From the sequence record OL780484.1: a stretch of DNA of 64,000 nucleotides. One strand, 5' to 3'. The DNA is from Escherichia phage vB_EcoM-E33. Numbering within the stretch: the stretch's first letter is position 1; the number at the start of each line of letters is the position of its first letter. Shown piece after piece: positions 277-43,600 of the stretch. The notes beneath the pieces were generated by a model. That model saw only the letters and a list, made by a program, of their open reading frames with translations. It ran no database searches and was not told where the DNA came from. Position numbers and translations under genes: made by a program.

Positions 277-277
277 T

Positions 278-493
278 ATGATTCTTGAAATTGAAACGTG
301 TGAACGTCTTAAAGAGGTATACGGACTTTCTCCAACTCAAACGATTTTTGACCTTTCCGAAGAGCTCCAAATAGAATTTCAAAAGGACCTCCAAAAGTTA
401 CTACATCCTGGCCAGCAAGTCTTCCAGGCTATGATTAAAACTAAAGACGAAGATGGTAATTCAACTATTAAACGTCAGACAATAGAAATTTAA
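278..493 (+). CDS. Hypothetical small protein (71 aa)
   Basis: ATG at 278 overlaps regA stop (TAATATG); ORF track 212..493 in same frame; followed by hairpin terminator. Confidence 0.5.
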   Translation: MILEIETCERLKEVYGLSPTQTIFDLSEELQIEFQKDLQKLLHPGQQVFQAMIKTKDEDGNSTIKRQTIEI

Positions 494-495
494 GC

Positions 496-515: not shown

Positions 516-544
516 TGGAGTATAATGATTCATCAACAAACAAA

Positions 545-3585: not shown

Positions 3586-3726
3586 AAATAATTGTTTTAT
3601 TTCTTATAATGGCTGCCTTTACCGTTTATTGGGCAGTGGCAATTCCGCCAATGATTCCGACACTCATCATTGGATGGATTATTCTTATAGCACAAATTAA
3701 GTATAACTGTTTTAATTGAGGATATT

Positions 3727-4227
3727 ATGAAAAAGTTAATTATCGCAATGAGTATGCTCCTATCAGGTTGCGCGGTCCAATATGGTGATACAGTTTCGGC
3801 CGATGAAGTTGGTAAAGCTCGTATCGCAGCTGAACAGAAACAATTCGATGGCGAAATGAAATTCCGTGCAGGTTCTGGACTTGTGTACACCCGAGCTAAT
3901 AATCAATGCGGTAATAACTGTGCAAAATATGCTCAACAAGAAATCGAATTCCAACGTGAACAAGAGTCCAAGCGTGAAGCGGTACTAGCCAAACACCAGG
4001 CAGAAATGAAGCGTCAAGATGATTTGTACAAAAAGCAGAAACTGTATGCGATGTGCGTAAACCATATCAATCTACAGATTTCCATCCACGAGGCTCGTTA
4101 TTACGAAATGCTCGAAACCGAGAGCTTCGGTAAAGCTCGTGATTATAAGAAACAAATCGATAAGCTCAAGACCAAAGTACCGGCGGCAATAGAACAGTGT
4201 ATTGAAATCGGTAAAGATAAGATTTAA
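3727..4227 (+). CDS. Putative lipoprotein (signal peptide with lipobox LLSGC), coiled-coil rich
   Basis: N-terminus MKKLIIAMSMLLSGC; SD TGAGGA upstream. Confidence 0.6.
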   Translation: MKKLIIAMSMLLSGCAVQYGDTVSADEVGKARIAAEQKQFDGEMKFRAGSGLVYTRANNQCGNNCAKYAQQEIEFQREQESKREAVLAKHQAEMKRQDDLYKKQKLYAMCVNHINLQISIHEARYYEMLETESFGKARDYKKQIDKLKTKVPAAIEQCIEIGKDKI

Positions 4228-4287
4228 GCAATACCAATTTATTAAAAATAGTGTATAATGTACCTACATTCACTTGAGGAACAGATA

Positions 4288-5961: not shown

Positions 5962-6320
5962 TGCATCTGTGTTTTGATATCGATAATACCATTACTCACT
6001 GGCAAGATGACCGTGATTACGAAAACTTTAAACCGGACACCGAAATGGTGTCCATGATTAATAAGCTTTATGATGAAGGGTACGAGATTACCTTGTTCAC
6101 TGCCCGTGGTATGACTTCATGCGGCCCGGGTCGAATCTTGGTTGAAGTAGTTCCTGCATTAGTTAAGAACCTTGAAAAGATTGGATTGAAATATCACAAT
6201 CTGCTTACACATAAGCCGAGTTATACTTTTATCATCGATGACCGAGCAATCCGTCCTGACCACTTTAAAGAAATGGTTCGTGAAGGAACTCTTGAAACCT
6301 ATAAGGCATATCATCCGTGA
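5946..6320 (+). CDS. Small HAD-superfamily phosphatase-like protein (124 aa)
   Basis: Motif I FDIDNTIT (DxDxT), motif II T in ITLFTARG, motif IV FIIDDR; start overlaps upstream stop. Confidence 0.6.
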   Translation: MEENLMHLCFDIDNTITHWQDDRDYENFKPDTEMVSMINKLYDEGYEITLFTARGMTSCGPGRILVEVVPALVKNLEKIGLKYHNLLTHKPSYTFIIDDRAIRPDHFKEMVREGTLETYKAYHP

Positions 6321-6853
6321 AACCAAAAATCATTGTTATCGACGGCCCGGATAATTCCGGGAAGTCTACTTTAATTGAATCACTTTTATCTGATAAGAAA
6401 TATCGTCTTATTGATTTCCCTAAAAAGATTAATGGCAAATGCATTTCATTAGGGACCGATAATGACAAGGCTTTAGTCGAGACGTTGTATAAGTTTTTAG
6501 ACCCTAATTTCGTTTACATCCTTGACCGTGGTTATCCAAGTAATATTGTTTACTCGGGATTCCTTCGCGGTGAAATGGACCCTTATGTAGAACTGGAAGA
6601 TTGGAAAAGGTTTAAATCTGAATTCAATATTATTGAGGTTATTTTAACCCGTAATCCACTGGATAAAGACTTTGAAGATGACCTTATTAAATTAACCAAA
6701 GATGAGTTCAACCTAACTATCCGCCAATACGAAACATGTTTTGAAAACGTGTTTAAAATCTTAAATCACGACGGCCATAATAACTTGCTTAACGTCGATA
6801 TGGTAGAATTAAAACGTCTGAATGAATATATTGAAAATAAGGTGAATAAATGA
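6317..6853 (+). CDS. P-loop kinase, thymidylate/deoxynucleotide-kinase-like (178 aa)
   Basis: Walker A IVIDGPDNSGKST; LDRGYPSNIVYSG resembles dTMP kinase DRY/S…Y motif; GTG start overlapping upstream stop. Confidence 0.65.
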   Translation: MKPKIIVIDGPDNSGKSTLIESLLSDKKYRLIDFPKKINGKCISLGTDNDKALVETLYKFLDPNFVYILDRGYPSNIVYSGFLRGEMDPYVELEDWKRFKSEFNIIEVILTRNPLDKDFEDDLIKLTKDEFNLTIRQYETCFENVFKILNHDGHNNLLNVDMVELKRLNEYIENKVNK

Positions 6854-7548
6854 AACACATTACCGCTGTTAGTTTTGAAAACGCGTTTAAGCAAATGAAC
6901 GAAGAAATCCTGGAAGCTCCACAGTTTGCAGTTGATTCTCGTATCGGCCGTTGTTATGAAATTGGTTCTGCTTCGGTAGAAGTACTGGATGCAAGCACCT
7001 ATAAATTCACCGACCCTCGTATTAATCGTATCAACTATGATTATGCCGAATCTTTCTGGAAGTTTATGATTTCTGGTGGTACTGACGCCGCCGAAGCATT
7101 TAAGGAATACCCTAATGTTGCTAAGTTCATTGATAAGCCGAAAAGTGACGTATTGCCTGCAAACTTCAACACTTTCTATGGACCTAGAATTGTGGCCCAA
7201 CTCCCAGCCTTACTTAAAGAGCTTAAAGAGAAGCCTAACTCAAGACGAGTTGTGTTCCAAATTCTCCAAGAACAAGACCAAGCCCTCCTTGATTCTGACG
7301 AATCCTTAGAATATCCATGTACTGATTCAGTGACATATTATATTCGTGATGGACGTCTTTATGCACATACCCATATGCGTTCACAGAACTGTGCTATTGT
7401 TATGCAGCTGGATTTCTATCTGCAGGGTAAACTGATGGCCTTTATTGCTGAACAGTGTGGTGTTGGTCTGGGTACGTATTCCCATACTATGGTTAGTGCA
7501 CACGTATTTGAACGTGATTTTGACTACGTTCGAGGATTCCTGAAATGA
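6850..7548 (+). CDS. 42: dCMP hydroxymethylase gp42 (thymidylate-synthase fold)
   Basis: 232 aa; position between imm and uvsX as T4 gene 42; TS-like C-terminal region; start overlaps upstream stop. Confidence 0.8.
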   Translation: MKHITAVSFENAFKQMNEEILEAPQFAVDSRIGRCYEIGSASVEVLDASTYKFTDPRINRINYDYAESFWKFMISGGTDAAEAFKEYPNVAKFIDKPKSDVLPANFNTFYGPRIVAQLPALLKELKEKPNSRRVVFQILQEQDQALLDSDESLEYPCTDSVTYYIRDGRLYAHTHMRSQNCAIVMQLDFYLQGKLMAFIAEQCGVGLGTYSHTMVSAHVFERDFDYVRGFLK

Positions 7549-13430: not shown

Positions 13431-14459
13431 ATGTCATATGTCGATAGAGAATTTGCTGTACGTGCCTTGAATTACCAACCTAAATTCAGACAAGTAACCG
13501 GTAGTGATTTTAAATTAAACTGCCGTTGTCGTGTATGTGGCGACTCCCTAAAAGATGAGAACAAAGCTCGTTTTTGGGCCTATCCGGCCAATGACGGCTC
13601 CGTAATGCTGCACTGTTTTAACTGTGACTATTCAGCAGGAATTAAGAAGTATCTATACGAATATGAGCCTGATTTATATCGAGAATATATTCTTGAGAAA
13701 CATAAAGAGCAATCGTTCGGGAGACAAGCTGCACCTAAGGTGGAGATATCAGAAAAGATTAAAGCCAAGATGCCTGTCATCGAAAAGCTTAATTTCTGTG
13801 AACGTCTGGATAGAATGCCAAAGGACCATCCTATTATCAAATATGTAACACTACGTTGCATTCCTGAAAACAAATGGAATCGCTTATGGTTTACTAAAGA
13901 ATGGCCGGCATTGGTGAACTCTGTCAATCCAGGGACCTATTCTAAAGAAATGCCTGAGCCTCGTTTGGTTATTCCAATTTTCAATAAGAATAAACAAATT
14001 GAAAGTTTTCAGGGTCGAGCCTTACGTAAAGATGCTCCACAAAAATATATTACAATAAAAGCTCATGACCAAGCTACAAAAATATATGGAATGGATACAG
14101 TTGACGAACGTCAGTTGGTGTGGGTAATGGAAGGCCCTATTGACTCTTTGTTTGTTCCGAATGCAATAGCAATTACTGGCGGGTCGTTGGACTTGGCTAT
14201 GGTTCCATGTAAAGAAACTCGTGCCTGGGTAATGGACAATGAACCCCGCCATCCTGACACAATTAAGCGTATGCAACGATTAGTTGATGCTGGCGAAAGG
14301 GTTCTATTCTGGGACAAGGCTCCATGGCCTTCTAAAGATATAAATGATATGATTATGAAAGATAAAGCTGATATAAATGATGTACTGGCATATATGAAAG
14401 CTAATATAGCCCAAGGTCTAATGGCTAAAATGAGACTTTCAAAATATTCTAAAATTTAG
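13431..14459 (+). CDS. 61: DNA primase gp61 (zinc-binding + TOPRIM)
   Basis: 342 aa, same length as T4 gp61; Cys4 zinc motif CRCRVCGDS…CFNC near N-terminus. Confidence 0.9.
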   Translation: MSYVDREFAVRALNYQPKFRQVTGSDFKLNCRCRVCGDSLKDENKARFWAYPANDGSVMLHCFNCDYSAGIKKYLYEYEPDLYREYILEKHKEQSFGRQAAPKVEISEKIKAKMPVIEKLNFCERLDRMPKDHPIIKYVTLRCIPENKWNRLWFTKEWPALVNSVNPGTYSKEMPEPRLVIPIFNKNKQIESFQGRALRKDAPQKYITIKAHDQATKIYGMDTVDERQLVWVMEGPIDSLFVPNAIAITGGSLDLAMVPCKETRAWVMDNEPRHPDTIKRMQRLVDAGERVLFWDKAPWPSKDINDMIMKDKADINDVLAYMKANIAQGLMAKMRLSKYSKI

Positions 14460-14656
14460 GCAGGAACTCCGCTAAAGAATCCAATTATGCTTAATACGTG
14501 TTCCATTGTAACCGCTGGTAAAATTATCCCTTGGCTAGCGGCTACAGGGACTACTAGAAGATTCCAAAGGAATACGTCTAGCGCAAGAAAACCTAACATC
14601 ATTTTCTTGTCTTTCTTTTCGGCCAATTTCCAGATTTGGTAAAAAATACTGCCCAT
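14456..14656 (-). CDS. Small hydrophobic membrane protein (66 aa), antisense to early gene block
   Basis: Strong SD AGGAGG 6 nt before ATG; exact late promoter TATAAATA upstream on - strand; convergent with gene 61 stop. Confidence 0.55.
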   Translation of the reverse strand: MGSIFYQIWKLAEKKDKKMMLGFLALDVFLWNLLVVPVAASQGIILPAVTMEHVLSIIGFFSGVPA

Positions 14657-14718: not shown

Positions 14719-15375
14719 ATGAATTACGAAAAAATATACCAGGAATTAATATCTAAAGGAAAATTAAGAGGTTCTAAGCGGTCTTTATCATATTATACGG
14801 AAGAACACCATGTTATACCTAGATGTATGAATGGTTCTGATGATAAAAACAATTTAGTTGCTTTATTGCCAAGAGAACACTTTGTAGCTCATAGGCTTTT
14901 AACAAAAATATATCCCGAAGTAAAAGGTCTACATTATGCTGTTAATTTAATGAGATATAATAAAGGAGTTAAATTAACTAGTAGAACTATAGCCACGTTA
15001 AGAGAAAATAACGCTAAAGCATTTTCAGGAAAAAATAACCCGATGTTTGGTAAACCTTCCTGGATTAGAGGGATGAAAACTCCTGAAGAAACTAAAGCCA
15101 AAATGCGCCTGGCTCATAAAGATAAAATTATATCTGATGAAGCCAAGGCCAATATGAGTAAAGCTAGAAAAGGAAGATTTAGTGGTAAAGATTCCCCTAG
15201 ATATGGTTTGCCGAATCCTAGGCGTGGAGAAATATGGAATAGTTACGATATGCTTTACGAATTATGGGTTTACAATAATAAACCTAAACGCACCAAATTT
15301 AATAAAATAGCTGTTGATAATGGATATCCTGATATTTGTTATCGACGAATGATAGAAAACTTTAATAGGAAATAA
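14719..15375 (+). CDS. Free-standing HNH homing endonuclease (218 aa)
   Basis: HNH motif EEHHVIPRCMNGSDDKNNLVALLPREHFVAH; C-terminal repeated GKNNPMFGKP / GKDSPRYGLPNP DNA-binding-like modules; AT-rich coding sequence; inserted between 61 and 56. Confidence 0.8.
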   Translation: MNYEKIYQELISKGKLRGSKRSLSYYTEEHHVIPRCMNGSDDKNNLVALLPREHFVAHRLLTKIYPEVKGLHYAVNLMRYNKGVKLTSRTIATLRENNAKAFSGKNNPMFGKPSWIRGMKTPEETKAKMRLAHKDKIISDEAKANMSKARKGRFSGKDSPRYGLPNPRRGEIWNSYDMLYELWVYNNKPKRTKFNKIAVDNGYPDICYRRMIENFNRK

Positions 15376-15379
15376 TATA

Positions 15380-15901
15380 ATGGCATTTTTTAACGAATGT
15401 AGTGGTTTGATTTCTGGTGTTGATAAAGCTGAGGAAGCTTATTTTAATGCTCTGATTCATGAAGATAAAGACCCTCTGCAGGTTATGCTTGATATGCAGA
15501 AATCATTACAGGTCCGTTTGGCTACTGAAAAATCTGAATTTAACTCTAACCCCGATGAACTGGCTACTGCAGGTCAAGTTGTCGATTGGCTTCGCAACCA
15601 GAAAGATTATATTGATGACGAATTCCGTGAACTGTTGACTTCTCTTGGTGGCATGAGTAATGGTGAGAAAGCCGCATCTAGCGTCTGGAAGCCTTGGAAA
15701 GCTCAGCACGGTGAATTCCGTAACCGTCGTATTGACGAACTCTCTCCTGAAGACCAGCTTGAAATTAAATTCGAGATGATTGATATTCTGCACTTTGTTC
15801 TGAATATGTTCCAAGGTCTTGGTCTGTCAGCCGAAGAAATCTTTAAGTTGTATTACCTGAAAAACGCTGAGAACTTTGCTCGTCAAGACCGAGGTTATTA
15901 A
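15380..15901 (+). CDS. 56: dCTP pyrophosphatase gp56 (MazG-like dCTPase/dUTPase)
   Basis: 173 aa vs T4 gp56 171 aa; synteny; all-alpha NTP-PPase-like sequence. Confidence 0.75.
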   Translation: MAFFNECSGLISGVDKAEEAYFNALIHEDKDPLQVMLDMQKSLQVRLATEKSEFNSNPDELATAGQVVDWLRNQKDYIDDEFRELLTSLGGMSNGEKAASSVWKPWKAQHGEFRNRRIDELSPEDQLEIKFEMIDILHFVLNMFQGLGLSAEEIFKLYYLKNAENFARQDRGY

Positions 15902-24727: not shown

Positions 24728-25157
24728 TCAAGAACTTGAATTTGAAAAAGGTAAATGGTACTATTTTAAAGATGATGCGGCAGAAGCTGAATTCCGTAAG
24801 CTGAATTCCCATAATATTAGGAATCCTAATAATTCTTCTATAGCAGATATCATTGTCAATTCTGAAGGTTTTTGCCCTGTTAGATTAGCGGCAGGTTATG
24901 TGATGAACGTGGACTTGGCTTATGGTGATAACACTGATATGGTTTTATATCCAAGCGAGCGTAAATTCTTTACGGAAATGGTTGTAGTTGACAGTGAAGA
25001 CGAATGGGCCGAAGATGGTTTCTCTGAAGACGAAGACACGTCTGAAGATGCAGCTCCATTCGAACCGAGTGATTTTCCTTTAACTAAAATCACTATCTCT
25101 AATAATTCTGAAGCCTGGTCAGTTTTCCAGATGTTGAAAGCTCACTTTAAGGAATAA
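24720..25157 (+). CDS. Hypothetical protein with strongly acidic C-terminal region (145 aa)
   Basis: ATG 24720 overlapping upstream stop; DSEDEWAEDGFSEDEDTSEDAAPFEPSDF. Confidence 0.4.
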   Translation: MLNQELEFEKGKWYYFKDDAAEAEFRKLNSHNIRNPNNSSIADIIVNSEGFCPVRLAAGYVMNVDLAYGDNTDMVLYPSERKFFTEMVVVDSEDEWAEDGFSEDEDTSEDAAPFEPSDFPLTKITISNNSEAWSVFQMLKAHFKE

Positions 25158-25158
25158 T

Positions 25159-25335
25159 ATGCCACTTTATGATTACAAATGCCAATCTGAAGACTGTGCA
25201 AAAGAATACGAAAAAATCAAGAAAATCTCTGAAAGAGATAATGATGTTTGTCCTGATTGCCATCGGCTGGCTGTTCGGTTAGTCTCGGCTCCTAAACATG
25301 TTAATGGCGGTTTTTACGACCTGCTGACTAAGTGA
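25159..25335 (+). CDS. Zinc-ribbon protein, FmdB-like (58 aa)
   Basis: MPLYDYKCQSEDC…CPDCH: two CxxC pairs; SD AAGGAA 5 nt upstream. Confidence 0.45.
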   Translation: MPLYDYKCQSEDCAKEYEKIKKISERDNDVCPDCHRLAVRLVSAPKHVNGGFYDLLTK

Positions 25336-25341
25336 GAAATT

Positions 25342-25602
25342 ATGAAATATATTAATCGTTCTATTGCAGCTCTCGTATTAGCAGTTTCTTTGGTTGGATG
25401 TACTGATGCCGATAATGCTACCCGTGTATTGGATGCAAATGGCTACGAACAAATCCAAATCACAGGATACAACCTATTTGGCTGCTCTGAAGATGATTTC
25501 CAACGTACAGGCTTTATTGCTGTGGGTCCGACAGGTAAAAGGGTTGAAGGAACTGTTTGTTCTGGATTATTCTTTAAAAAGTCGACCATTCGATTTGATT
25601 AA
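25342..25602 (+). CDS. Putative lipoprotein (lipobox LVGC)
   Basis: MKYINRSIAALVLAVSLVGCTD…. Confidence 0.55.
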   Translation: MKYINRSIAALVLAVSLVGCTDADNATRVLDANGYEQIQITGYNLFGCSEDDFQRTGFIAVGPTGKRVEGTVCSGLFFKKSTIRFD

Positions 25603-25620
25603 GGGCTTCGGCCCTTTTAT
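25601..25620 (+). terminator. Terminator-like hairpin (aagggc-UUCG-gccctt + TTTTAT)
   Basis: Stem-loop overlapping stop of lipoprotein gene. Confidence 0.5.
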
Positions 25621-25644
25621 GCTTTAAGTGAAATGGGATAATAT
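25620..25644 (+). promoter_or_regulatory. Possible MotA-dependent middle promoter (TGCTTTA box + TAATAT -10)
   Basis: TGCTTTA at 25620-25626, 12-nt spacer, TAATAT; upstream of gene 39. Confidence 0.35.
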
Positions 25645-25668
25645 TCTCCTACTACATGAGGAAATAAC

Positions 25669-27486
25669 ATGATTAAGAATGAAATTAAAGTACTGTCCGA
25701 CATTGAACATATCAAAAAACGTAGTGGGATGTATATTGGCTCAAGTGCTAATGAAGCTCACGGTCGATTCCTGTTTGGTAATTTTACACAGGTAAACTAT
25801 GTTCCTGGACTGGTTAAATTAATTGATGAAATCATTGATAACTCTGTCGATGAAGCTATTCGTACCAATTTTAAATTCGCAAATAAAATTGATGTTCAAA
25901 TTAAGAATAACCAGGTTTCAGTTTCTGATAATGGTCGTGGTATTCCACAAGCAATGGTCACCGACCAAAATGGTGAACAGATTCCAGGTCCTGTAGCTGC
26001 ATGGACTATTCCAAAGGCAGGTGGTAACTTTGGAGATGACGCTGAGCGTAAGACAGGCGGCATGAATGGTGTCGGTAGTAGTTTAACTAATATCTTCTCT
26101 GTTTTGTTCACAGGCATCACCTCTGATGGTGAGAATGAGATTACTGTTAACTGTTCAAACGGAATGGAAAACAAAGGTTGGTCTACTAAGAAATCTAAAG
26201 GTAAGGGTACTTCGGTTATATTCACCCCAGACTTTAATCATTTCGAAGAAAATAGCCTGTCACAAATTTATCTGGATATTACATTAGACCGATTGCAAAC
26301 TCTGGCCGTAGTTTATCCTGATATTCAATTTACTTTTAATGGTAAAAAAGTAGATGGCAACTTTAAAAAGTATGCTAAGCAATTTGGTGAAGACTTTGTA
26401 ATCCAAGAAACCGATAATGTTTCGATGGCGTTCACTCCTTCTCCGGATGGATTCCGTCAACTGACTTATGTAAACAATATCCACACCAAGAATGGTGGCC
26501 ACCACGTTGAATGTGTATTCGATGATATTTGTGAACACCTTCTGCCAGGCATTAAAAAGAAATACCGTGGAATTGAAGTAACTAAAGCTCGTGTTAAAGA
26601 ATGCCTTACGATGGTGATGTTCATTCGTGATATGAGCAACATGCGTTTTGATTCACAGACTAAAGAACGTTTGACCTCTCCTTTTGGTGAGATTCGCAAT
26701 CATATCCAAATTGATGCTAAAAAAATTGCTCAAGCCATTCTTAAAGTTGATGGGTTGATTATGCCTATCGTTGAAGCTGCTTTAGCACGTAAATTAGCAG
26801 CTGAAAAGGCTGCCGAAACTAAAGCCGCTAAGAAAGCTTCTAAAGCCAAGGTCCATAAGCATATTAAAGCTAACCTATACGGCAAAGATGCTGATACAAC
26901 CCTGTTCCTAACCGAAGGTGATTCCGCTATGGGTCCTTTCATTGAAGTCCGTAATAAAGACCTTCAAGGTGGCTATCCATTACGTGGTAAGGTTATGAAT
27001 ACCTGGGGAATGACAGCAACAGATATCATGAAGAACAAGGAACTATTTGATATCTGTGCAATCACTGGATTGGTTATTGGTGAACCCGCAGAGAAAACCA
27101 ACTATCGTAATATTGCTATTATGACCGATGCCGATGTGGATGGTACTGGTTCGATTTATCCATCATTGCTAGCCTTCTTTAGTCAATGGCCTGAATTGTT
27201 CGAACAAGGCCGAGTACGTTTCTGTAAAACTCCGGTAATTATTGCCCAGGTTGGTAAAGAACAGGAATGGTTCTATGATGTGCCTAGTTATACCAAAGCT
27301 AAGGATTCTCTACCAAAACATTCTATTCGTTATATCAAAGGACTAGGTTCTCTTGAGAAAGCTGAATACCGTCGAATGATTCAAGACCCTAAATTTGATG
27401 TGGTTCAATTACCTGAAGATTGGAAAGAACAGTTCGAAATGCTCCTTGGTAATGACCCTCAACTCCGTAAGGCCTGGATGTCGTAA
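25669..27486 (+). CDS. 39: DNA topoisomerase II large subunit gp39 (GyrB-like ATPase + TOPRIM), contiguous 39+60 equivalent
   Basis: 605 aa; GHKL ATPase and TOPRIM-like regions; single uninterrupted ORF. Confidence 0.92.
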   Translation: MIKNEIKVLSDIEHIKKRSGMYIGSSANEAHGRFLFGNFTQVNYVPGLVKLIDEIIDNSVDEAIRTNFKFANKIDVQIKNNQVSVSDNGRGIPQAMVTDQNGEQIPGPVAAWTIPKAGGNFGDDAERKTGGMNGVGSSLTNIFSVLFTGITSDGENEITVNCSNGMENKGWSTKKSKGKGTSVIFTPDFNHFEENSLSQIYLDITLDRLQTLAVVYPDIQFTFNGKKVDGNFKKYAKQFGEDFVIQETDNVSMAFTPSPDGFRQLTYVNNIHTKNGGHHVECVFDDICEHLLPGIKKKYRGIEVTKARVKECLTMVMFIRDMSNMRFDSQTKERLTSPFGEIRNHIQIDAKKIAQAILKVDGLIMPIVEAALARKLAAEKAAETKAAKKASKAKVHKHIKANLYGKDADTTLFLTEGDSAMGPFIEVRNKDLQGGYPLRGKVMNTWGMTATDIMKNKELFDICAITGLVIGEPAEKTNYRNIAIMTDADVDGTGSIYPSLLAFFSQWPELFEQGRVRFCKTPVIIAQVGKEQEWFYDVPSYTKAKDSLPKHSIRYIKGLGSLEKAEYRRMIQDPKFDVVQLPEDWKEQFEMLLGNDPQLRKAWMS

Positions 27487-27530
27487 TAAATATGTATGGT
27501 ACTAATTGGTGCCATACAAAAGGAGACTTT

Positions 27531-27692
27531 ATGAGAAAGTACTGGGTTACGCTCGTCACCGGTGAATACGGTTATATCTGGACTGATACTAGACCTCAGT
27601 TTGCAGAATACGTGACTATTACAGTCGAGACATGGGACGGCGAAGTTTACCAAACCCGCGGACAAGTCTATAAGGTCGATTCAAGTAACTAA
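27531..27692 (+). CDS. Small hypothetical protein (53 aa)
   Basis: ATG 27531 after SD AGGAG; ORF track 27492..27692. Confidence 0.4.
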   Translation: MRKYWVTLVTGEYGYIWTDTRPQFAEYVTITVETWDGEVYQTRGQVYKVDSSN

Positions 27693-27700
27693 ACTAATAA

Positions 27701-27719
27701 GGGCCTTCGGGCCCTTTTC
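27701..27719 (+). terminator. Terminator-like hairpin (gggcc-UUCG-ggccc + TTTT)
   Basis: Stem-loop after stop at 27692. Confidence 0.5.
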
Positions 27720-27769
27720 GGGGTTTACAAAGACCTGTGGTTATGATAGGATTATCTAGAGGTGAGAAT

Positions 27770-28093
27770 ATGATTATGCAAGATAACAGTATAGTGAACA
27801 CTGACAATCTAGCTTTATCCTTTATGGAAACGGCCATTCGTAACTGTAAAGATGAAGGAGTAGTGACTACAAGCGGTAAGGGACTTGAATACCTTAAGGC
27901 TGTAAAATCTATTGCCTTAAAGATTAAAGATAACCAGGCGCTCTCTCCTGTGGTCCAGGAAAAGGTTTTAGAGATAATGTATCGCCACAGAGAGCACAAA
28001 AGTACAATGGGTTCTATGAGAAGAATTCTGGCTGAACTAGGTTCTACCAGAGAATATGTTCAACATGAGGTAGTTAAAAATGACAAACTTTAA
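27770..28093 (+). CDS. Hypothetical protein (107 aa)
   Basis: ATG 27770 after SD GAGGTGAG; early promoter upstream. Confidence 0.45.
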   Translation: MIMQDNSIVNTDNLALSFMETAIRNCKDEGVVTTSGKGLEYLKAVKSIALKIKDNQALSPVVQEKVLEIMYRHREHKSTMGSMRRILAELGSTREYVQHEVVKNDKL

Positions 28094-28283
28094 AGTGAAT
28101 ATTGATTTGTTCGATAAAGCCGTCCATAAAGAATTCCGGTTAATCCAACGATTTTTTGATATCAATGCGGCTGAGGATTTTAAAGAACGCTTTAAAGAAA
28201 TCAGATATAAAATACTCAACGACATCGCTACTAAGGACGAGCTCCTTGAAGTGGCAGACATTTTTAAACGTAACCTGAATTGA
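28080..28283 (+). CDS. Hypothetical protein (67 aa)
   Basis: ORF track. Confidence 0.4.
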   Translation: MTNFKVNIDLFDKAVHKEFRLIQRFFDINAAEDFKERFKEIRYKILNDIATKDELLEVADIFKRNLN

Positions 28284-28290
28284 GAAAAAT

Positions 28291-30501
28291 ATGATTATTG
28301 AAACCGAAAAAGAACAAATCATTGGTAATGGTGCTAAGTCCACAGGCTTTACTATTCAGGCATCGCCTAAGGTCTTTAAAATTTTGTCATCAGACCTTTA
28401 TAGTAATAAAGTACGTGCCGTAGTTCGTGAACTAATTACCAACATGATTGATGCCCATATTCTAAATGGTAATAAAGAACGTTGGAAAGTACAGGTTCCT
28501 GGTAAACTAGACCCTCGCTTTGTATGTCGTGATTTCGGTCCGGGTATGAGTGATTTCCAAATTCGTGGTGATGAAAACGAAACAGGTTTGTATAACTCTT
28601 ATTTCGCGTCGTCCAAAACCGCTTCTAACGATTTCATCGGCGGCTTTGGCCTTGGTTCAAAATCTCCGTTCAGTTATACCGAAACGTTTAATATTACCTC
28701 ATGGCACAATGGCGAAGTTCGCGGTTATGTAGCATATATGGATGGTGATGGCCCGCAGATTAAACCTACTTTCGTAGAACCTATGCAGCCAGGTGATAAA
28801 ACAGGTATCGAAATCACGGTTCCTGTTGATGAAGAAGATTTCCGTAAGTTTGAAACTGAAGTTCGTTATATCATGCGGCCTTTCATTGGTCTTGGTGATG
28901 TAGACGGTGTTGAAGTTGATTATTTCCCTGAATTTGACGATTACCATCCTGTAACCACTACAAATTATGGCAGCTTCGAACGTTCAGGACTTTATGCAGT
29001 TTATGGTGGTATTGTTTATCCATTGGATTCTGCCTATAATAAAGGCACATGGATGCGTACTCGCCATGATGTAGTTTATATTAAGTTCCCTATGGGTTCA
29101 CTGGATATTGCTCCGTCTCGTGAAGTGTTGTCTCTTGATAAACGTACGATGGAAAATATTGCAACCCGTATCGAAGCACTGGATGCAGTGGTCTTTAAAA
29201 ACGATACACAGGAATGGGTTGAATCTGATAATCCACGCCATGTTTATCGTGACCTTTCTAACCTTGGTTACAGTGCTCGTGACTATCTTACCAAAAAAGG
29301 TGGAACTAGCCTGTTTACTACAGAAAAATTGACATATGAGAAATTATACCAGCGTTATACCCTTCAAAACGACCTTATTAATTTAGGTGTGGTTTACGAA
29401 GTCGTTTCAGACCCACGTTTGAAACGAATTAAGTCAAGTGGTAATACTTCTTCGGTAGCAGGACTTAGTAATTTATTAGGCATTAATAAGAAAGAAATCC
29501 ATGTTGTTTATGATGATGAAAAAGGTCGTGTGCCATTAGTTCGAGGTCTTTGGGCTCTGGCAATGGACAACAGTGCTTCGGCTAAGAAAATTGTTAAAGA
29601 GAACAATATTCCTAAATACGGAACTGACCTTATTTTTGTCGACCCAAATTCAATGTTGCAAATGCAACAACTTGAAAAGGTTAAAGAACTTTTTAAAGGT
29701 GACACAATTCATTTTTATAAAGTCTCTGAACTGAATAAAATTGTTAAGCCATGGATTCCGGTTACTGTCCGTTCATCAGAACCGCGTCCTAAAACACCGA
29801 GTGCTTATCGTTGGTTCATTAAAGACGGGCGCTGGCAACAAGAGACCATGTATTTGACTGCTGCCGAAGCAGAAGAAATTACAGGTTATGTTCTGTTTGG
29901 CAGTCGTTCTGATATTATGGGAATGGATGAAGCTTATGGTATCTTTGACATCAATACCACTACCATGTGTCGTATGGCTAATTTGATTGGTGCTACCGAA
30001 TTCCATATCATTCGCCCTCAGATTGCCAAAAAGATTAAAAAGTTAGGCCAATGCGAATGCTTGATGGAAGCTACATTAGAAGCTTATGCTGAAGCCTTAG
30101 ACGCGGTAGATGTTGATGACTACCTTGGTAGCAATACTCGAGCTCGGTATTACCTTGAAATCATTGCTAAGTTCCCTCAGCTTAATTTCATGACCAAGTA
30201 TTTCAGTGATAAGCCGGTGACTGAAGCATATACTCGTCTGAGTAATTTCTATGATATATTCCGTTATATGAATTTCGGCGGATATATCACTGATGATAAG
30301 CTTTCCGTTATCAAGAAAATTTGTAACAATACTTTTTTTAAGTTGACTGATAATGCTTCAAGCAACAATGATAAAATGACTGTACAGTTTGAATCTGATT
30401 ACCATTTAGTTTCAGACTACATGTATCGTCGTGGAACATCCATTACCGAGGCTTCTGTAGCTCAAATTGTTAAATTCATGAAAGCCGTGGAAGCGGCTTA
30501 A
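28291..30501 (+). CDS. rIIA: rIIA protein (membrane-associated, GHKL-like N-terminal domain)
   Basis: 736 aa; MIIETEKEQIIGNGAKS… matches T4 rIIA N-terminus as recalled; synteny 39-rIIA-rIIB. Confidence 0.92.
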   Translation: MIIETEKEQIIGNGAKSTGFTIQASPKVFKILSSDLYSNKVRAVVRELITNMIDAHILNGNKERWKVQVPGKLDPRFVCRDFGPGMSDFQIRGDENETGLYNSYFASSKTASNDFIGGFGLGSKSPFSYTETFNITSWHNGEVRGYVAYMDGDGPQIKPTFVEPMQPGDKTGIEITVPVDEEDFRKFETEVRYIMRPFIGLGDVDGVEVDYFPEFDDYHPVTTTNYGSFERSGLYAVYGGIVYPLDSAYNKGTWMRTRHDVVYIKFPMGSLDIAPSREVLSLDKRTMENIATRIEALDAVVFKNDTQEWVESDNPRHVYRDLSNLGYSARDYLTKKGGTSLFTTEKLTYEKLYQRYTLQNDLINLGVVYEVVSDPRLKRIKSSGNTSSVAGLSNLLGINKKEIHVVYDDEKGRVPLVRGLWALAMDNSASAKKIVKENNIPKYGTDLIFVDPNSMLQMQQLEKVKELFKGDTIHFYKVSELNKIVKPWIPVTVRSSEPRPKTPSAYRWFIKDGRWQQETMYLTAAEAEEITGYVLFGSRSDIMGMDEAYGIFDINTTTMCRMANLIGATEFHIIRPQIAKKIKKLGQCECLMEATLEAYAEALDAVDVDDYLGSNTRARYYLEIIAKFPQLNFMTKYFSDKPVTEAYTRLSNFYDIFRYMNFGGYITDDKLSVIKKICNNTFFKLTDNASSNNDKMTVQFESDYHLVSDYMYRRGTSITEASVAQIVKFMKAVEAA

Positions 30502-30515
30502 TCTAAGGAAATATT

Positions 30516-31484
30516 ATGTACAATATTAAGTGTTTGACCTCCGCTGAGCAAGTTGAAATCGCTAAGTTATATATTTCTGGTAATTATACTCAGAATGAGT
30601 TGGCTGACTGGTACAGTGTATCAGTTGATACAATCCGTAAAGTCCTGAAAAATGCTAAAGGAGCTGGACAGGCCCAGGTAGTTATTACCGGAAATATCAA
30701 AGTAACAGTTCCTAACGAGCCTCGTGAAGTTCCCGTTGAAGTTACTATTGGCGGCTCTCGCCCTGAAATTATCTGGAACGCGAGTTCTAAATTCGTATCC
30801 ATCACTGAAGGTCGTACAGTATGGAACACCACTAATAAGAACAAACATTTTGATGCCATCGTACAGGCTCTTAAAGAATCTCGTTTCGATGACGCGATTA
30901 AACTGATTTCCATTAAAGAAGCCGTTAAGGCCTTTGTTAAAGGCAACGTTCGTATTGAAGGTGGACGTCTGGTTTACCAAGGCATTGAATTGCGTTCAGG
31001 GTTGATTGACCGTATTATCACTTCAATGGAAAACGGTGAAGACTTCGAATTCTACCTGCCGTTCCTTGAGAACCTGTTAGAAAACCCAAGCGAAAAAGCT
31101 GTACAACGTTTGTTCGACTTCTTGGTGGCAAACGACATCAAAATTACTGAAGATGGTCACTTTATTACGTGGAAGGTGGTTAACTCCGATTACACCGACT
31201 GCCGTACCGGTACGTTTGATAACTCACCAGGCAAACCGGTTAAAATGCCTCGTTCTCGTGTAAATGACGATGATGAAGTAACCTGTTCAAGTGGTCTGCA
31301 CGTTTGCTCTCGTAGTTATATCAGTCATTTTGGTAACTCAAGCTGTAAAGTGGTTTCATGTAAAGTTAACCCACGTGATGTTGTTAGTATTCCGGTCGAT
31401 TACGGTGATGCTAAAATGCGTGTATGTTATTATGAAGTTCTAGAAGACGTCACCGAACAGTTCGCAAACGAATACAAATACTAA
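30516..31484 (+). CDS. rIIB: rIIB protein
   Basis: 322 aa (T4 312 aa); immediately downstream of rIIA; SD AAGGAAA. Confidence 0.88.
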   Translation: MYNIKCLTSAEQVEIAKLYISGNYTQNELADWYSVSVDTIRKVLKNAKGAGQAQVVITGNIKVTVPNEPREVPVEVTIGGSRPEIIWNASSKFVSITEGRTVWNTTNKNKHFDAIVQALKESRFDDAIKLISIKEAVKAFVKGNVRIEGGRLVYQGIELRSGLIDRIITSMENGEDFEFYLPFLENLLENPSEKAVQRLFDFLVANDIKITEDGHFITWKVVNSDYTDCRTGTFDNSPGKPVKMPRSRVNDDDEVTCSSGLHVCSRSYISHFGNSSCKVVSCKVNPRDVVSIPVDYGDAKMRVCYYEVLEDVTEQFANEYKY

Positions 31485-32583: not shown

Positions 32584-32841
32584 ATGAAATTCTATTACGC
32601 CAAACATAAAATTACCCGTGAGTTTGTATCGTTTTCAACCTTTTCAGATGAAGAAGACTTTTGCATCACTGGTCTGGATTTATCTAAATATGAAACCGAC
32701 CAGCCTTATTTGACCACTCATGACGAGATTCAACGTTTGGTGAACGGTGAGCTAAATAATTCTTACTGCACTCAAATTTACCCTGCTTTGAAAAAAGCTA
32801 TCAATGCTAATCAGATTGAAATCATTGAGGTGGAATTGTGA
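32584..32841 (+). CDS. Hypothetical protein (85 aa), tandem paralog 1
   Basis: MKFYYAKHKIT… ; SD GAGAGGAAAA; early promoter. Confidence 0.5.
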   Translation: MKFYYAKHKITREFVSFSTFSDEEDFCITGLDLSKYETDQPYLTTHDEIQRLVNGELNNSYCTQIYPALKKAINANQIEIIEVEL

Positions 32842-34851: not shown

Positions 34852-36231
34852 ATGGCTGATGTAATTGATACCCTTTTTAAACAGGCTTTAGATGTTTACG
34901 ATGATTCTTTCACTCGTCGTGACTTAAAAAGTATTATCGACAACGAAGCATTGGCTTATGCAATGTATACTGTCGAAAACCGAGCCATTCCAAATATGAT
35001 TGATGGCTTTAAACCTGTACAACGTTTTGTAGTGGCTCGTTGTCTTGATATGGCTCGTGGTAATAAAGAAAAATTCCACAAACTGGCTTCTATCGCTGGT
35101 GGTGTAGCCGACCTCGGATATCACCACGGTGAAGGTTCTGCTCAGGAAGCAGGGGCTTTGATGGCTAACACATGGAACAACAACTATCCATTGTTAGACG
35201 GTCAAGGTAACTTCGGTTCTCGATTGGTTCAAAAGGCTGCAGCCTCTCGTTATATTTTTGCTCGTATCGGAAGTAACTTTGCAAAAGTTTATAAGGACAC
35301 AGAATATGCTCCGGTTCATGCGGATGTCGAACATAAGCCACCGGCTTTTTATCTGCCTATTATTCCTACTGTTCTTCTTAATGGCGTTTCCGGTATTGCA
35401 ACTGGTTATGCAACTAATATTCTTCCTCATAGTTTTGATTCTGTTAAGAAAGCTGTACTGCAAGTTCTTCAGGAAAAACGAGTAACCAAACCCAAAGTGG
35501 CTTATCCTGAATTCCGTGGTGAAGTTGTTGAGATTGAACCTGGTAGTTATGAGATTCGTGGAACGTATAAGTTCACATCTCGAACCCAAATGCATATCAC
35601 GGAAATCCCATACAAATACGACCGTGAAACATATGTGGCTAAGGTATTAGACCCTCTGGAAGACAAAGGGTATATCACATATGATGATGACTGTGACGAG
35701 AACGGTTTTGGCTTCAAGGTTAAGATTCGTAAAGAATACGAATTGCCTACTGATGAAAACAAGAAGCATGAAAAAATCATGAAGGACTTCGGGTTAATCG
35801 AACGTCGTTCACAAAACCTGACTGTCATTAATGAAAAAGGTAAACTTAAGGTTTACGAAGATGCAGTTGAACTGATTCGTGATTTCGTTGAGGTCCGTAA
35901 GACCTTTGTACAGAAACGTATTGATGGTAAAATCATCGAAACTGAAGAAGCTTTCAAACTGGCATTGGCTAAAGCCACATTTATCAAAGATGTTATTGAT
36001 GGTGTAGTGGTTATCCAAGGTAAGACCCGTAAGGTTTTAACCGAAGAATTGACCGGTAATAAAGTCTATGGCGAATATGCCGATAAACTAGTGGCCATGA
36101 ACATTTTCCATATCACTTCTGACGAAGCCAAGAAACTGGCCCTCGAAGCCAAGGCTAAGAAAGAAGAGCATCAATATTGGAAAACCACTGATGTTGTAAC
36201 TGAGTATGTTAAAGATTTGGAGGCTCTATGA
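34852..36231 (+). CDS. 52: DNA topoisomerase II medium subunit gp52 (GyrA-like)
   Basis: 459 aa; GFKPVQRFV and catalytic-Tyr region typical of type IIA topo A subunit. Confidence 0.9.
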   Translation: MADVIDTLFKQALDVYDDSFTRRDLKSIIDNEALAYAMYTVENRAIPNMIDGFKPVQRFVVARCLDMARGNKEKFHKLASIAGGVADLGYHHGEGSAQEAGALMANTWNNNYPLLDGQGNFGSRLVQKAAASRYIFARIGSNFAKVYKDTEYAPVHADVEHKPPAFYLPIIPTVLLNGVSGIATGYATNILPHSFDSVKKAVLQVLQEKRVTKPKVAYPEFRGEVVEIEPGSYEIRGTYKFTSRTQMHITEIPYKYDRETYVAKVLDPLEDKGYITYDDDCDENGFGFKVKIRKEYELPTDENKKHEKIMKDFGLIERRSQNLTVINEKGKLKVYEDAVELIRDFVEVRKTFVQKRIDGKIIETEEAFKLALAKATFIKDVIDGVVVIQGKTRKVLTEELTGNKVYGEYADKLVAMNIFHITSDEAKKLALEAKAKKEEHQYWKTTDVVTEYVKDLEAL

Positions 36232-40614: not shown

Positions 40615-43600
40615 TTATTTTAACAATGATTTAATTAATGCTTTAAGTTCTTCAATCTCTGATTTCAATTCTGCTATTTCTGCAGTGTGCTCATTGATTG
40701 CAGCTGTATTTAAACCAATTACACCGTTATAGTTCAAACGAAGTAAAGCTTCACCATCAGGGTCACCTTCAACTAATTCTGGTAAAATAGCTTGAACTTC
40801 TTGAGCTATCAAACCGGCGTTAGGTTCCCATTTCTGATTGCCTTCTTCATCTAGGCCTCGCTTCTGCATATAAGTGTAACCATTAATTTTAGAAAGTGTT
40901 TGTGAAGCATTTTCAAATTTAACGAGGTCTTTTTTAACGCGAATATCAGAACGGACATAAACATCACGGACAAACGTTGAATAGGCATCACCCTGTTGGA
41001 CTAAATGACCATGAGAAACAATTGCTTTACCGACTTCTGTCCAAAAAGCACCGGATGAATCCCATAACCCCTCATGTGCCAGACGTTGAGATCCCCATGA
41101 CGCAATATGAACACTATCGGCAAACATGTTAATACGGCCGTCACCGCCCCAGACTAAACCAGTATCATTATCACCAATAACAAGACACGGCCCGGGCCAT
41201 GCAGGGTCTCCACCACCAGCTGATAATCTTGCTCCAGTTTTAACCATATTAGGAACATACAGAACTCCATTGTGATGGAATTCATAGATAGCTTGTGGGT
41301 CTTGACCATTTTCCTGGTTACCTACACGAATAATACCTTGCGCCCAAGTATTAGTAATGCGTCGCATACCAAAATCTACACCCGATATGTATCCTTCGTT
41401 AGTAATACCAGATTTTCCTTTGATAATCGGGTAATAACTATCATTACCAACATTACCAAAATCTACAAACACCGGAGCTTCTTGTCGCCATTGATTACCC
41501 CAATCGCCAGCTTGGTGTGCAGCCCATTGTGAACCCTTTATATAAAGACGGTCCCTATTAAAATAAAAAGTATCCGCCCCTTGAGGAGCTAAACCAACTT
41601 CTCCACTATTATGAATATTAACGCCTGAATTAGTTTGGAAACTATAAAACGATAAGTTGTTATCAGCGCCGCCATTACCAACATACCAGTTATTAACGCC
41701 TGCTTTTTGTCCTTTCACATAACCAGATTCGGTTGCAGCACTGTTAATAACAATAGCATCCGAGTTTGCATTGATAGTTAAGCGGCCGGTCATCGTGTCG
41801 CCTTCTTTAGCCACACGGGAGGCAATAGCATCATGAATGTTAGTTATATCACCAGCAGAGGTAAATACGTTCCAAATGTTGGAGAAGATATTACCATTTC
41901 GAGCAATAGTAGCTTCACCGCCGCCAACCTGTACGTTATCCGGGAAATTAACTGTACCATCAGCATTAAATCTTGATGTATGACCTTGGGTCCCGTCTTC
42001 TTTGTAATGATGCAAAACAAAAGTCCCGGAATTAATTTCAGTACCTAAAGACCAAACAGCTTTTCCTTGTAAGAATTTCTGCTTAACAATAGGATAATAT
42101 TTACTTACCGCGTCATCATCAATTTCTTGGAAAACAGGAGCTGCTTGTGCATATTGAATATCGTAACCGCCTGCACCTGCACCATGTCCACCGAATTTAA
42201 TATAACCGTTTGCTGCAAAAAAAGCATAACTCAAATCTAGGTCAGGAATAACAACCTTACCGGTATCCAATGCCAAACTAAATGGACGAAGTGGTCCGAT
42301 ATCACCATTTTTACCTTCACCGTAAGCAGTTGGAATAATATGAAGACTTCCTTCTGAACGTCTAAAAATGGCACCGTAATCATTGTTCCAAATACGAAGA
42401 CCATTTACAGCATTTGTCGCGATTTCACCGGCTGCGCTGATTGTACCGTCAAATGTAGCATTTTTTACTACAGTCAAGTTTTCATTAACAATCTGGGTGC
42501 CATTTAGAACCGATTCGACTTTACCAGCAGTTGTTCGTTGAATATATTGCATCCAGCTAGTAGCATCAGATATTTCCATTACGTTTTTACGGTCGCCATC
42601 AACATTAGTAAAGGTATTACCCCAAACGCTGATAGTCATATTATCAACTGAACTACTTCCTGTAGTATTTCCTCTGAACATTAGTGTAGAAGCATTGTTG
42701 TGGCCATCAATATTAACCGAACCACCAACAACATCAATATTACCAGGAGTAACTAACAAACCACCAGCGGTGTTAACGTTTGTAGTACCCTTACCACGGA
42801 AATAGTGGTGATAATTGCCACCTTGATAATAACCTAAAAGAGTTTGACCGTCGCCATACGCGTTATTATCATGATAAGTGACAACCGTCGCCAAAGCATA
42901 GTTTTCCGACGGAGGAGTGGTTAAATCGGTACCGTTTACAGAATAACCCATAACCATTTTTCTAAGACTGGTGGTTTCTGCAGGGCCGTACAGGAAAGTT
43001 CTCGTGCCGTTATTAACGCTGAAATAATATCCATCCTGATGCCATTTTAACCCGGTGTCATTATCGCCAAGAGCAATTGAAGCCGTTCCTAATTCAGAAT
43101 ATCCTTTAGAGTTACCTGGGGTGCCTACAGAAATAGAATGGCCTGCTTTCAATCCACCGGACCAGGTAAATGACCAAAGATAAGCTTCTAAGCCGTCGCC
43201 GGCATACCAGGTTATTCCGTCATTATCTTTAACTTCATGGAAAATGCTCGAACTAACGGCATTTCGCATAACACGAAGGTGGTTAATAGCTGTTTCACTT
43301 TCTGCCAATGGGGTATTATCGGCCATTGAATAGATATCATAATCACCTTTAACCTTTTTATTAGTAATAACTTTATTGGTATAAATTACCGGAGTTGATA
43401 CAGATTTCCATCCAAAAACTTCAGGGGAAGAAAACACACCATTGCCTGAAAACGCGTAGGTGCTTTCGCCACTTGTCGCATAATCTTGTACGCGAATATT
43501 AACTACCTGAGTGGTCGCTCCAGCATTATTTGGCGAAAAGATAATGCCACGTTCGCGGGATGCGCCGTCAAAAAATCTCAAATGGGACGTCGATGCACTC

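What the first reader, a model, noticed from the sequence alone, without database searches (positions are those of the whole stretch)
25669..27486. Topoisomerase II large subunit encoded as one 605-aa ORF (no gene 60 split, no translational bypass element)
T4 splits this protein into gene 39 and gene 60, the latter containing the famous 50-nt ribosomal bypass. Here the equivalent is a single uninterrupted ORF, consistent with the ancestral/T2-like state.
Basis: partly seen in the sequence, partly recalled or inferred. Interest (0 to 1): 0.4.

Follow-up and report, generated by a model that had tools for sequence, protein, structure and literature searches.

The report
Ordinary unsplit phage topoisomerase II gene
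This is the normal, uninterrupted gene for the large subunit of a T4-like phage's DNA topoisomerase II, already annotated in near-identical phages, and it is phage T4's split-and-bypass version that is the rare exception.

Summary
Window 25669..27486 (+) is one 605-codon ORF with no internal stop. Residues 1-474 match T4 gp39 1-473, and residues 478-605 match T4 gp60 32-159, both at 77% identity. Only three codons (E475-T477) sit where T4 carries about 1 kb of inserted DNA (gp39 tail, mobA pseudogene, 60.1, gp60 N-terminus). At the point where T4 has its 50-nt bypass gap, the window reads straight through (GAT GGT|ACT GGT), with no stop and no hairpin.

The protein is the same length as T2 gp39 (605 aa, 78% identical). 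It is collinear end to end with the cryo-EM-solved T6 gp39. The window holds no remnant of the T4 insert-derived tails, so this is the never-invaded "parental" form and not a secondary re-fusion. The partner subunit (gp52 homologue) lies at 34852..36231.

The window is a Dhakavirus-type T4-like phage. An identical protein is already deposited (Shigella phage PSD9), and RefSeq relatives annotate the same gene. About 2,200 phage records carry a homologue, mostly as a single piece; only about 54 carry a detectable T4-type cassette.

The parts
25669..27486 (+). Complete gene for the topoisomerase II large (GyrB/ParE-like) subunit, 605 aa. It is the unsplit equivalent of T4 genes 39 + 60.
   Evidence: ORF. 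Pfam HATPase_c 2.4e-10 and DNA_gyraseB 2.7e-13. 77% identity to T4 gp39 and gp60. Full-length match to T6 gp39 chain 8ylu_C. 78% identity to T2 gp39. 100% identical translated match in Shigella phage PSD9, annotated 'DNA topoisomerase large subunit'.
25807..26235 (+). GHKL (Bergerat-fold) ATPase domain, aa 47-189. It includes DEIIDNSVDE (53-62), DNGRGIP (87-93) and GGMNGVGSS (130-138).
   Evidence: Pfam HATPase_c; motif positions.
26416..26823 (+). Transducer domain, aa 250-385, with the QTK loop (QTKERL, aa 330-335, nt 26656..26673).
   Evidence: Pfam DNA_gyraseB; motif.
26914..27144 (+). Toprim core, from the EGDSA glutamate motif (aa 416-420) to the DxDxD metal-binding motif DADVDG (aa 487-492). 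It is continuous here; in T4 it is divided between gp39 and gp60.
   Evidence: Motifs. Collinear with T6 gp39. The literature states that MobA splits the Toprim metal site.
27091..27099 (+). Junction codons GAG AAA ACC (E475-K476-T477). They link the gp39-homologous part (ends at A474) to the gp60-homologous part (starts at N478). T4 has 1,012 nt here by my alignment boundaries.
27142..27147 (+). Site equivalent to the T4 take-off codon. GGT (G492) is followed directly by ACT (T493): no UAG, no 50-nt gap, no hairpin.
   Evidence: Codon display. 30-nt MFE is -2.8 kcal/mol here against -12.2 for T4 and -3.4 for T2; this is the 45th percentile of the gene's own 30-nt windows.
25601..25662 (+). 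Upstream signals: GC hairpin plus T-run (25601..25616), MotA-box-like TGCTTTA (25620..25626), -10-like TAATAT (25639..25644), and Shine-Dalgarno GAGGA (25658..25662) 6 nt before the ATG. The layout parallels that upstream of T4 gene 39.
   Evidence: Reading it as a middle promoter is inferred from the T4 consensus (own knowledge); it was not tested.
34852..36231 (+). Partner subunit: the gp52 homologue (GyrA/ParC-like DNA breakage-reunion subunit), 459 aa, with motif AAASRYIFARI (Tyr134).
   Evidence: ORF. Pfam DNA_topoisoIV 2.7e-75. Motif.

Best explanation
The ORF encodes the complete ATPase/Toprim (GyrB/ParE-like) subunit of a two-subunit T-even-type type IIA DNA topoisomerase. It is made by ordinary linear translation of one mRNA reading frame. 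By homology, two copies pair with two copies of the gp52 homologue encoded about 7 kb downstream to form an A2B2 enzyme. In that enzyme the N-terminal GHKL domains bind and hydrolyse ATP, and the Toprim domain supplies the Mg2+ site. The gp52 tyrosine cleaves the gate DNA segment so that a second duplex can pass through, which relaxes supercoils during phage DNA replication. The gene is in the 'parental' state: the MobA homing-endonuclease/bypass cassette that split the T4 gene into 39 and 60 never entered it. Shown here: gene structure, collinearity, domains and motifs, absence of any cassette remnant, and presence of the partner gene. Inferred: enzymatic activity, subunit stoichiometry and middle-promoter expression.
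For: - The ORF is intact.
- It matches T4 gp39 and gp60 at 77% identity, with a 3-codon junction.
- It is the same length as T2 gp39 and collinear with it, and collinear with T6 gp39, whose holoenzyme structure and relaxation activity are published (PMC11461880).
- The GHKL, transducer-QTK, EGDSA, PLRGK and DxDxD motifs are all present.
- The gp52 homologue has a DNA_topoisoIV domain.
- tblastn and blastn find no CTE, NTE, T4-insert or bypass-hairpin remnant in the whole 64-kb window. Best E-values for the tails are about 0.8, and the only insert hits fall in an unrelated HNH gene.
- There is no stable hairpin at the take-off-equivalent site.
- Close relatives annotate the same 1,818-nt gene, and PSD9 encodes an identical protein.
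- 1,954 of 2,200 phage records cover at least 80% of the protein in one place, and most sampled rows are a single piece. Only 54 records carry a detectable T4-type NTE + bypass cassette.
Against: Nothing in the sequence argues against it. Caveats: activity, stoichiometry and expression were not tested. Pfam TOPRIM_C scored below its gathering cut-off (21.6 against 29 bits), and no Pfam Toprim model was reported, so Toprim membership rests on motifs and on the full-length alignment to solved T6 gp39. The count of 54 cassette carriers is a lower bound, because blastn misses divergent cassettes such as those of the Acinetobacter and Aeromonas phages seen.
Confidence: 0.96

Rival explanations
1. 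Secondary re-fusion ('hit and run'): the lineage was once invaded by the MobA element and split, then lost the endonuclease and bypass and re-created a single ORF. This has been described for an Aeromonas phage clade and for fused Campylobacter ORFs.
For: Such cases exist and also appear as single ORFs (bioRxiv 10.1101/2022.08.31.505936).
Against: [quoted passage not shown] Here only three residues bridge the two halves. The protein is the same length as T2 gp39, with no gap at the junction. CTE and NTE searches of the whole window give only chance-level hits.
Confidence: 0.02
2. The gene needs some form of recoding or splicing (a hidden frameshift, a bypass elsewhere, an intron or an intein), or it is a decaying pseudogene.
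For: T4-like phages do carry group I introns and homing-endonuclease insertions in other essential genes (PMC2988022).
Against: There are no internal stops. Collinearity with the T6 and T2 proteins is full-length, with one 1-aa indel. No Rfam family, including introns, reaches threshold anywhere in the window. All catalytic motifs are intact.
Confidence: 0.01
3. Assembly artefact: a roughly 1-kb insert was collapsed or lost during assembly, so the real phage is split like T4.
For: None specific.
Against: In a megablast of window 25000-31000, 45 independent phage records cover at least 80% of that stretch in one place. The best ones have 1-3 pieces whose spans match the query length. The three close relatives inspected annotate the same 1,818-nt gene (WG01, vB_SalD_ABTNLS3) or encode an identical protein in one piece (PSD9).
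Confidence: 0.01

Closest known systems
T2 / T6 gp39, the unsplit topoisomerase II large subunit (T6 gp39 solved by cryo-EM, e.g. 8ylu chain C; PMC11461880)
   Same: T2 gp39 is the same length (605 aa) and 78% identical. T6 chain 8ylu_C aligns over residues 1-604 of its 611. Domain order is the same, the Toprim is continuous, and the enzyme is a two-subunit type with gp52. No gap occurs at the T4 split site or bypass site.
   Different: About 22% of residues differ. There is one extra residue near position 301 and one fewer at the C-terminus. The genus differs (Dhakavirus-type against Tequatrovirus). Two small extra ORFs follow the gene before rIIA.1.
Dhakavirus topoisomerase II large subunit (e.g. 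Escherichia phage WG01 YP_009323204.1; Shigella phage PSD9; Salmonella phage vB_SalD_ABTNLS3 WPJ21530.1)
   Same: The gene has the same 1,818-nt length in the same genomic position (39.1 - 39 - two small ORFs - rIIA.1 - rIIA). The surrounding DNA is 98-99% identical, and the PSD9 translated match is 100% identical.
   Different: Nothing of substance. The WG01 note still calls it 'N-terminal region' by transfer from T4, which misdescribes a full-length gene.
T4 gp39 + gp60 with the mobA insert and 50-nt translational bypass
   Same: It is the orthologous enzyme. Identity over the shared parts is 77%, and the upstream hairpin/promoter-like/SD layout and neighbouring genes are similar.
   Different: T4 has a 43-aa insert-derived tail on gp39, a mobA pseudogene, gene 60.1, a 31-aa insert-derived N-terminus on gp60, and the UAG + hairpin + 50-nt coding gap after Gly46. 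The window has none of these.
Bacterial GyrB / ParE and the N-terminal half of eukaryotic Topo II
   Same: The GHKL-transducer-Toprim architecture and motifs are shared. Sequence matches are significant: human Topo IIa 2.4e-58, ParE 2.1e-42, GyrB 8.4e-38.
   Different: Relationship is much more distant. The phage subunit is shorter, and T-even enzymes relax DNA rather than supercoil it (the activity statement comes from the literature and was not tested here).

Membership tests
Type IIA topoisomerase B-type subunit (GyrB/ParE/gp39) | N-terminal GHKL ATPase domain with N-box, G1 and G2 motifs | tested here: met
   Pfam HATPase_c 2.4e-10, above cut-off. DEIIDNSVDE, DNGRGIP and GGMNGVGSS are present.
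Type IIA topoisomerase B-type subunit (GyrB/ParE/gp39) | Transducer domain with the QTK-loop lysine | tested here: met
   Pfam DNA_gyraseB 2.7e-13. QTKERL at aa 330-335.
Type IIA topoisomerase B-type subunit (GyrB/ParE/gp39) | Toprim domain with a catalytic Glu (EGDSA) and a DxDxD metal site | tested here: met
   EGDSA at 416-420 and DADVDG at 487-492. The region aligns without gaps to solved T6 gp39. Pfam TOPRIM_C is below its cut-off (21.6 against 29 bits), so the evidence is motifs plus alignment and not a Pfam domain call.
Type IIA topoisomerase B-type subunit (GyrB/ParE/gp39) | A partner A-type subunit with a catalytic tyrosine encoded in the same genome | tested here: met
   34852..36231 is a 459-aa protein with DNA_topoisoIV at 2.7e-75 and AAASRYIFARI with Tyr134.
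Type IIA topoisomerase B-type subunit (GyrB/ParE/gp39) | ATP-dependent strand-passage activity | not testable with these tools
   Inferred from its close similarity to T6 gp39 (full-length collinear match), whose holoenzyme relaxes DNA (PMC11461880).
'Parental' unsplit T-even Topo2L (T2/T6 type) | A single ORF collinear with T2/T6 gp39 across the MobA insertion site | tested here: met
   Window 1-605 against T6 1-604 and T2 1-604; the only gap is at column 301.
'Parental' unsplit T-even Topo2L (T2/T6 type) | No insert-derived CTE/NTE sequences, no mobA and no bypass cassette | tested here: met
   tblastn and blastn of the T4 CTE, NTE, 1,012-nt insert and gap against the whole window give chance-level hits only. 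A fuzzy search for the take-off hairpin finds none.
T4-type split gene 39/60 with translational bypass | ORF1 ends after about 472 shared residues plus a CTE of about 43 aa, followed by a mobA (HNH) gene or its remnant | tested here: not met
   The ORF continues through the site. There is no HNH gene between 27091 and rIIA.1; the only Mob-type HNH gene is at 14719..15375.
T4-type split gene 39/60 with translational bypass | Take-off Gly codon followed by a stop codon, a stable hairpin and a roughly 50-nt non-coding gap before a matching landing codon | tested here: not met
   GAT GGT ACT GGT TCG is in frame with no stop. Local MFE is -2.8 against -12.2 kcal/mol for T4.
Secondarily re-fused Topo2L (Aeromonas clade 7 / Campylobacter clade 8 of bioRxiv 10.1101/2022.08.31.505936) | A single ORF that carries an insertion encoding CTE- and NTE-homologous sequence at the MobA site | tested here: not met
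   Only E-K-T lies between the two homologous halves. The length equals that of T2 gp39.

The most novel reading that the evidence does not exclude
The most that could be new is this: the Dhakavirus allele may keep an intact, cleavable MobA target. Seventeen consecutive nucleotides (AATATTGCTATTATGAC, 27109..27125) are identical to T2. They cover the region about 20 nt upstream of the bypass-insertion point, where MobA is reported to nick T2. If the target is cleavable, this phage would be a naive recipient into which the mobA/bypass cassette could home during co-infection with a MobA-positive phage. That would extend the known host range of the element to another genus.
Probability: 0.35. Interest if true: 0.15.

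Novelty: already known. Interest (0 to 1): 0.07.

Why it matters
It matters very little as a discovery. The gene is an ordinary, already annotated essential replication gene of a known phage genus. Its unsplit state is the common and ancestral one, documented since the T2/T6 versus T4 comparisons and analysed in depth in the 2022 MobA/bypass survey. Its practical value is as a clean 'parental' reference allele. It marks the exact 60-nt target segment (about 27085..27144) that the MobA element replaces in invaded phages. It also corrects transferred annotations in relatives, such as 'N-terminal region' on the WG01 gene.

Tried and rejected
- **Homologues of T4 insert genes:** I searched the window for gp60.1 and MobA. 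gp60.1 gave chance hits only. The MobA fragment hit an HNH gene at 14719..15375 (E = 5e-8). That gene shares only the N-terminal nuclease domain with intact MobA (39% over 125 aa) and lies between primase and dCTPase, so it is a different Mob-type endonuclease and unrelated to this locus.
- **DUF7367 ORF:** I considered that 27737..28093, downstream of the gene, might be a relocated gp60.1. tblastn found no match at that ORF; its best gp60.1 hit was chance-level (E = 0.29) and elsewhere. Rejected.
- **blastn window against T4:** the gene-60-homologous 3' part produced no reported hit. Codon-level comparison shows 53/75 nt identity, so this reflects blastn sensitivity and not absence.
- **Rfam and tRNA scans** of the whole window found nothing.
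- **Promoter-consensus scan:** no more sites than shuffled sequence (7 found against 8.9 expected). The middle-promoter reading rests only on resemblance to the T4 upstream region.
- **Primary MobA-homing paper** (reference 19 of the bioRxiv study): it is not in the searchable library. Statements about the nick site are therefore second-hand, via the bioRxiv text.
- **Large protein-database, structure-prediction and metagenome searches:** not used, because a solved close homologue (T6 gp39) and identical GenBank entries made them unnecessary.

Full report
**Observation.** The window has an ATG-initiated ORF at exactly 25669..27486 on the + strand, 605 aa, with no internal stop codon. Pfam finds a GHKL ATPase domain (HATPase_c, 2.4e-10) and the GyrB transducer domain (DNA_gyraseB, 2.7e-13). 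It also gives a sub-threshold TOPRIM_C match.

**Source of the window.** Megablast of 25000..31000 against GenBank phages finds 650 records. The best are Dhakavirus-type T4-like phages at 98-99% identity: Salmonella phage vB_SalD_ABTNLS3, Shigella phage PSD9, and Escherichia phages WG01, QL01 and IME540.
- RefSeq WG01 annotates a gene of the same 1,818-nt length as 'DNA topoisomerase II large subunit', in the same gene order: dexA, motB, cef, goF-like, 39.2, 39.1, 39, two small ORFs, rIIA.1, rIIA.
- vB_SalD_ABTNLS3 annotates the gene at the same window-equivalent coordinates.
- tblastn shows that PSD9 encodes a 100% identical protein.

The gene and its annotation are therefore already public.

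I translated T4 gp39 and gp60 from NC_000866, with the 50-nt gap removed as annotated, and aligned them to the 605-aa product.
- Residues 1-474 match gp39 1-473 (367/474 identical, one 1-aa gap).
- Residues 478-605 match gp60 32-159 (99/128 identical, no gap).
- T4 gp39 residues 474-516 and gp60 residues 1-31 have no counterpart.
- At the DNA level the two homologous halves are joined in the window by three codons, GAG AAA ACC (27091..27099). By these boundaries T4 has 1,012 nt there, containing the gp39 tail, the mobA pseudogene, 60.1 and the start of gene 60.
- At the T4 bypass site, T4 reads GAT GGA UAG, then a hairpin, a 50-nt gap, and TTA GGT. The window reads GAT GGT ACT GGT TCG in frame, with G492 at 27142..27144.
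- The 30 nt starting at the take-off codon fold at -12.2 kcal/mol in T4. The equivalent stretch folds at -2.8 in the window and -3.4 in T2. The window value sits at the 45th percentile of all 30-nt windows of the gene, so it is unremarkable.

No in-frame insertion, frameshift requirement or bypass element exists.

**Parental state or secondary re-fusion?** The 2022 bioRxiv survey of the MobA/bypass element (10.1101/2022.08.31.505936) shows that a single ORF can also arise secondarily. Some Aeromonas and Campylobacter phages re-fused the gene after invasion but kept the insert-derived C-terminal and N-terminal extensions (CTE/NTE). I tested this possibility.
- tblastn of the T4 CTE and NTE, and blastn of the whole T4 insert and of the gap, give only chance-level hits in the 64-kb window. 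Best E-values for the tails are about 0.8.
- The only near-significant insert hits lie in an unrelated HNH gene at about 14.7 kb.
- T2 gp39 (AP018813 2447..4264) is also exactly 605 aa and 78% identical. The only alignment gap is at column 301.
- The cryo-EM-solved T6 gp39 (8ylu_C) aligns 1-604 to window 1-605, with the junction region ungapped: GEPAEKTNYRNIAIMTDADVDGTGS against GEKAENLNYHNIAIMTDADHDGLGS.
[quoted passage not shown] With the window's extra residue at 301, this corresponds to D491/G492 and to roughly nt 27085..27144, which are intact here.

The gene is therefore the never-invaded 'parental' form.

**Is 'ancestral' justified?** tblastn finds homologues in 2,200 phage records, and 1,954 of them cover at least 80% of the protein in one place. 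In an even sample of 60 records, most are a single piece. These include distant Vibrio, Aeromonas, Vi01-like and Xanthomonas phages at 30-50% identity. A split with an intervening homing endonuclease appears only in T4, two Acinetobacter phages and one Aeromonas phage. The T4 NTE + bypass segment is detectable by blastn in only 54 records, which is a lower bound. Cellular GyrB, ParE and eukaryotic Topo II also have a continuous Toprim domain. By parsimony, and in agreement with the literature, the unsplit state is ancestral and by far the commonest.

**How it works.**

*Shown:*
- The protein has all the sequence hallmarks of a type IIA topoisomerase B-type subunit: N-box DEIIDNSVDE (53-62), G1 DNGRGIP (87-93), G2 GGMNGVGSS (130-138), QTK loop (330-335), EGDSA (416-420), PLRGK (437-441), DADVDG (487-492) and KGLG (557-560).
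- The A-type partner is encoded at 34852..36231. It is 459 aa, with DNA_topoisoIV at 2.7e-75 and the motif AAASRYIFARI containing Tyr134.

*Inferred from the T6 holoenzyme structures and assays (PMC11461880):*
- The two proteins form a heterotetramer that performs ATP-dependent strand passage and relaxes DNA during phage replication.

*Inferred from upstream resemblance to T4, not tested:*
- Upstream there is a GC hairpin with a T-run (25601..25616), a TGCTTTA element (25620..25626) 12 nt before TAATAT (25639..25644), and a GAGGA Shine-Dalgarno 6 nt before the ATG. T4 has the same arrangement upstream of gene 39.
- This suggests MotA-dependent middle transcription. The generic sigma-70 scan shows no enrichment over shuffles.
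- No Rfam family or tRNA occurs in the window.

**Comparison with the known, and novelty.** The feature is a member of the T2/T6-type unsplit Topo2L group; every defining feature I could test was met. It is not a member of the T4 split/bypass type or of the re-fused type, whose defining features were tested and not met. An identical protein and the same annotation are already in GenBank and RefSeq, so the novelty class is 'already known'.

The only mildly open point is whether this allele can be cleaved by MobA. It shares a 17-nt identical block with T2 (27109..27125) over the region where the nick is reported, about 20 nt upstream of the bypass-insertion point. That cannot be decided computationally, and it would be of modest interest.

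**Verdict.** The finding is ordinary: interest 0.07.

Noticed in passing
window 14719..15375 (+): A free-standing Mob-type HNH homing endonuclease (218 aa, NUMOD3 motif) lies between the primase gene (13431..14459) and the dCTPase gene (15380..15901). Its N-terminal nuclease domain is 39% identical to intact MobA of Acinetobacter phage fHyAci03, and the T4 mobA pseudogene fragment hits it at E = 5e-8. The C-terminal half is unrelated, so it presumably has a different target. A small opposite-strand ORF (14456..14656) sits just upstream.
   Followed up: partly
window 27492..28093 (+): Two small ORFs lie between the topoisomerase gene and rIIA.1: 27492/27531..27692, with no family, and 27737/27770..28093, Pfam DUF7367 at 1.4e-44. 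In T4 and T2 the topoisomerase gene is followed almost directly by rIIA.1. A perfect GC hairpin (AAGGGCCTTCGGGCCCTT, 27699..27716) separates them. This looks like a small lineage-specific insertion of unknown function.
   Followed up: partly
window 4258..7548 (+); Pfam was run on the 98.9%-identical relative, L004 3929..7189: Between imm and uvsX there is a 567-aa ORF whose homologue carries NTP_transferase plus kinase-like (APH) domains. It is followed by small ORFs and a 232-aa thymidylate-synthase-family protein, probably dCMP hydroxymethylase (gp42), which the relative labels 'thymidylate kinase'. The cluster looks like a sugar-nucleotide / DNA hypermodification cluster, and that label is probably a mis-annotation.
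   Followed up: partly
window 277..485, 32616..32838, 40747..41147, 42415..42534: These stretches have no megablast match to the closest relative examined (vB_SalD_ABTNLS3). The last two lie inside the long-tail-fibre distal-subunit region, where identity also drops to 90-92%. They are probably receptor-binding-tip variation and small indels.
   Followed up: no
L001 (T4 NC_000866), gene 39 codons about 325-328: The T4 reference reads CGA TTG ATT CGT CAA (R-L-I-R-Q). T2 reads CGA TTT GAC TCT CAA and the window CGT TTT GAT TCA CAG (both R-F-D-S-Q), immediately before the conserved QTK loop. The T4 reading looks like a -1/+1 compensated frameshift over three codons. It could be a real T4 variant or an old sequencing error carried into NP_049621.1.
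   Followed up: partly
L002 (WG01 NC_031928), CDS 3670..5487: The RefSeq note on the full-length WG01 gene still says 'gp39 topoisomerase II, large subunit, N-terminal region'. This label was transferred from split T4 and misdescribes an unsplit 605-aa gene.
   Followed up: yes
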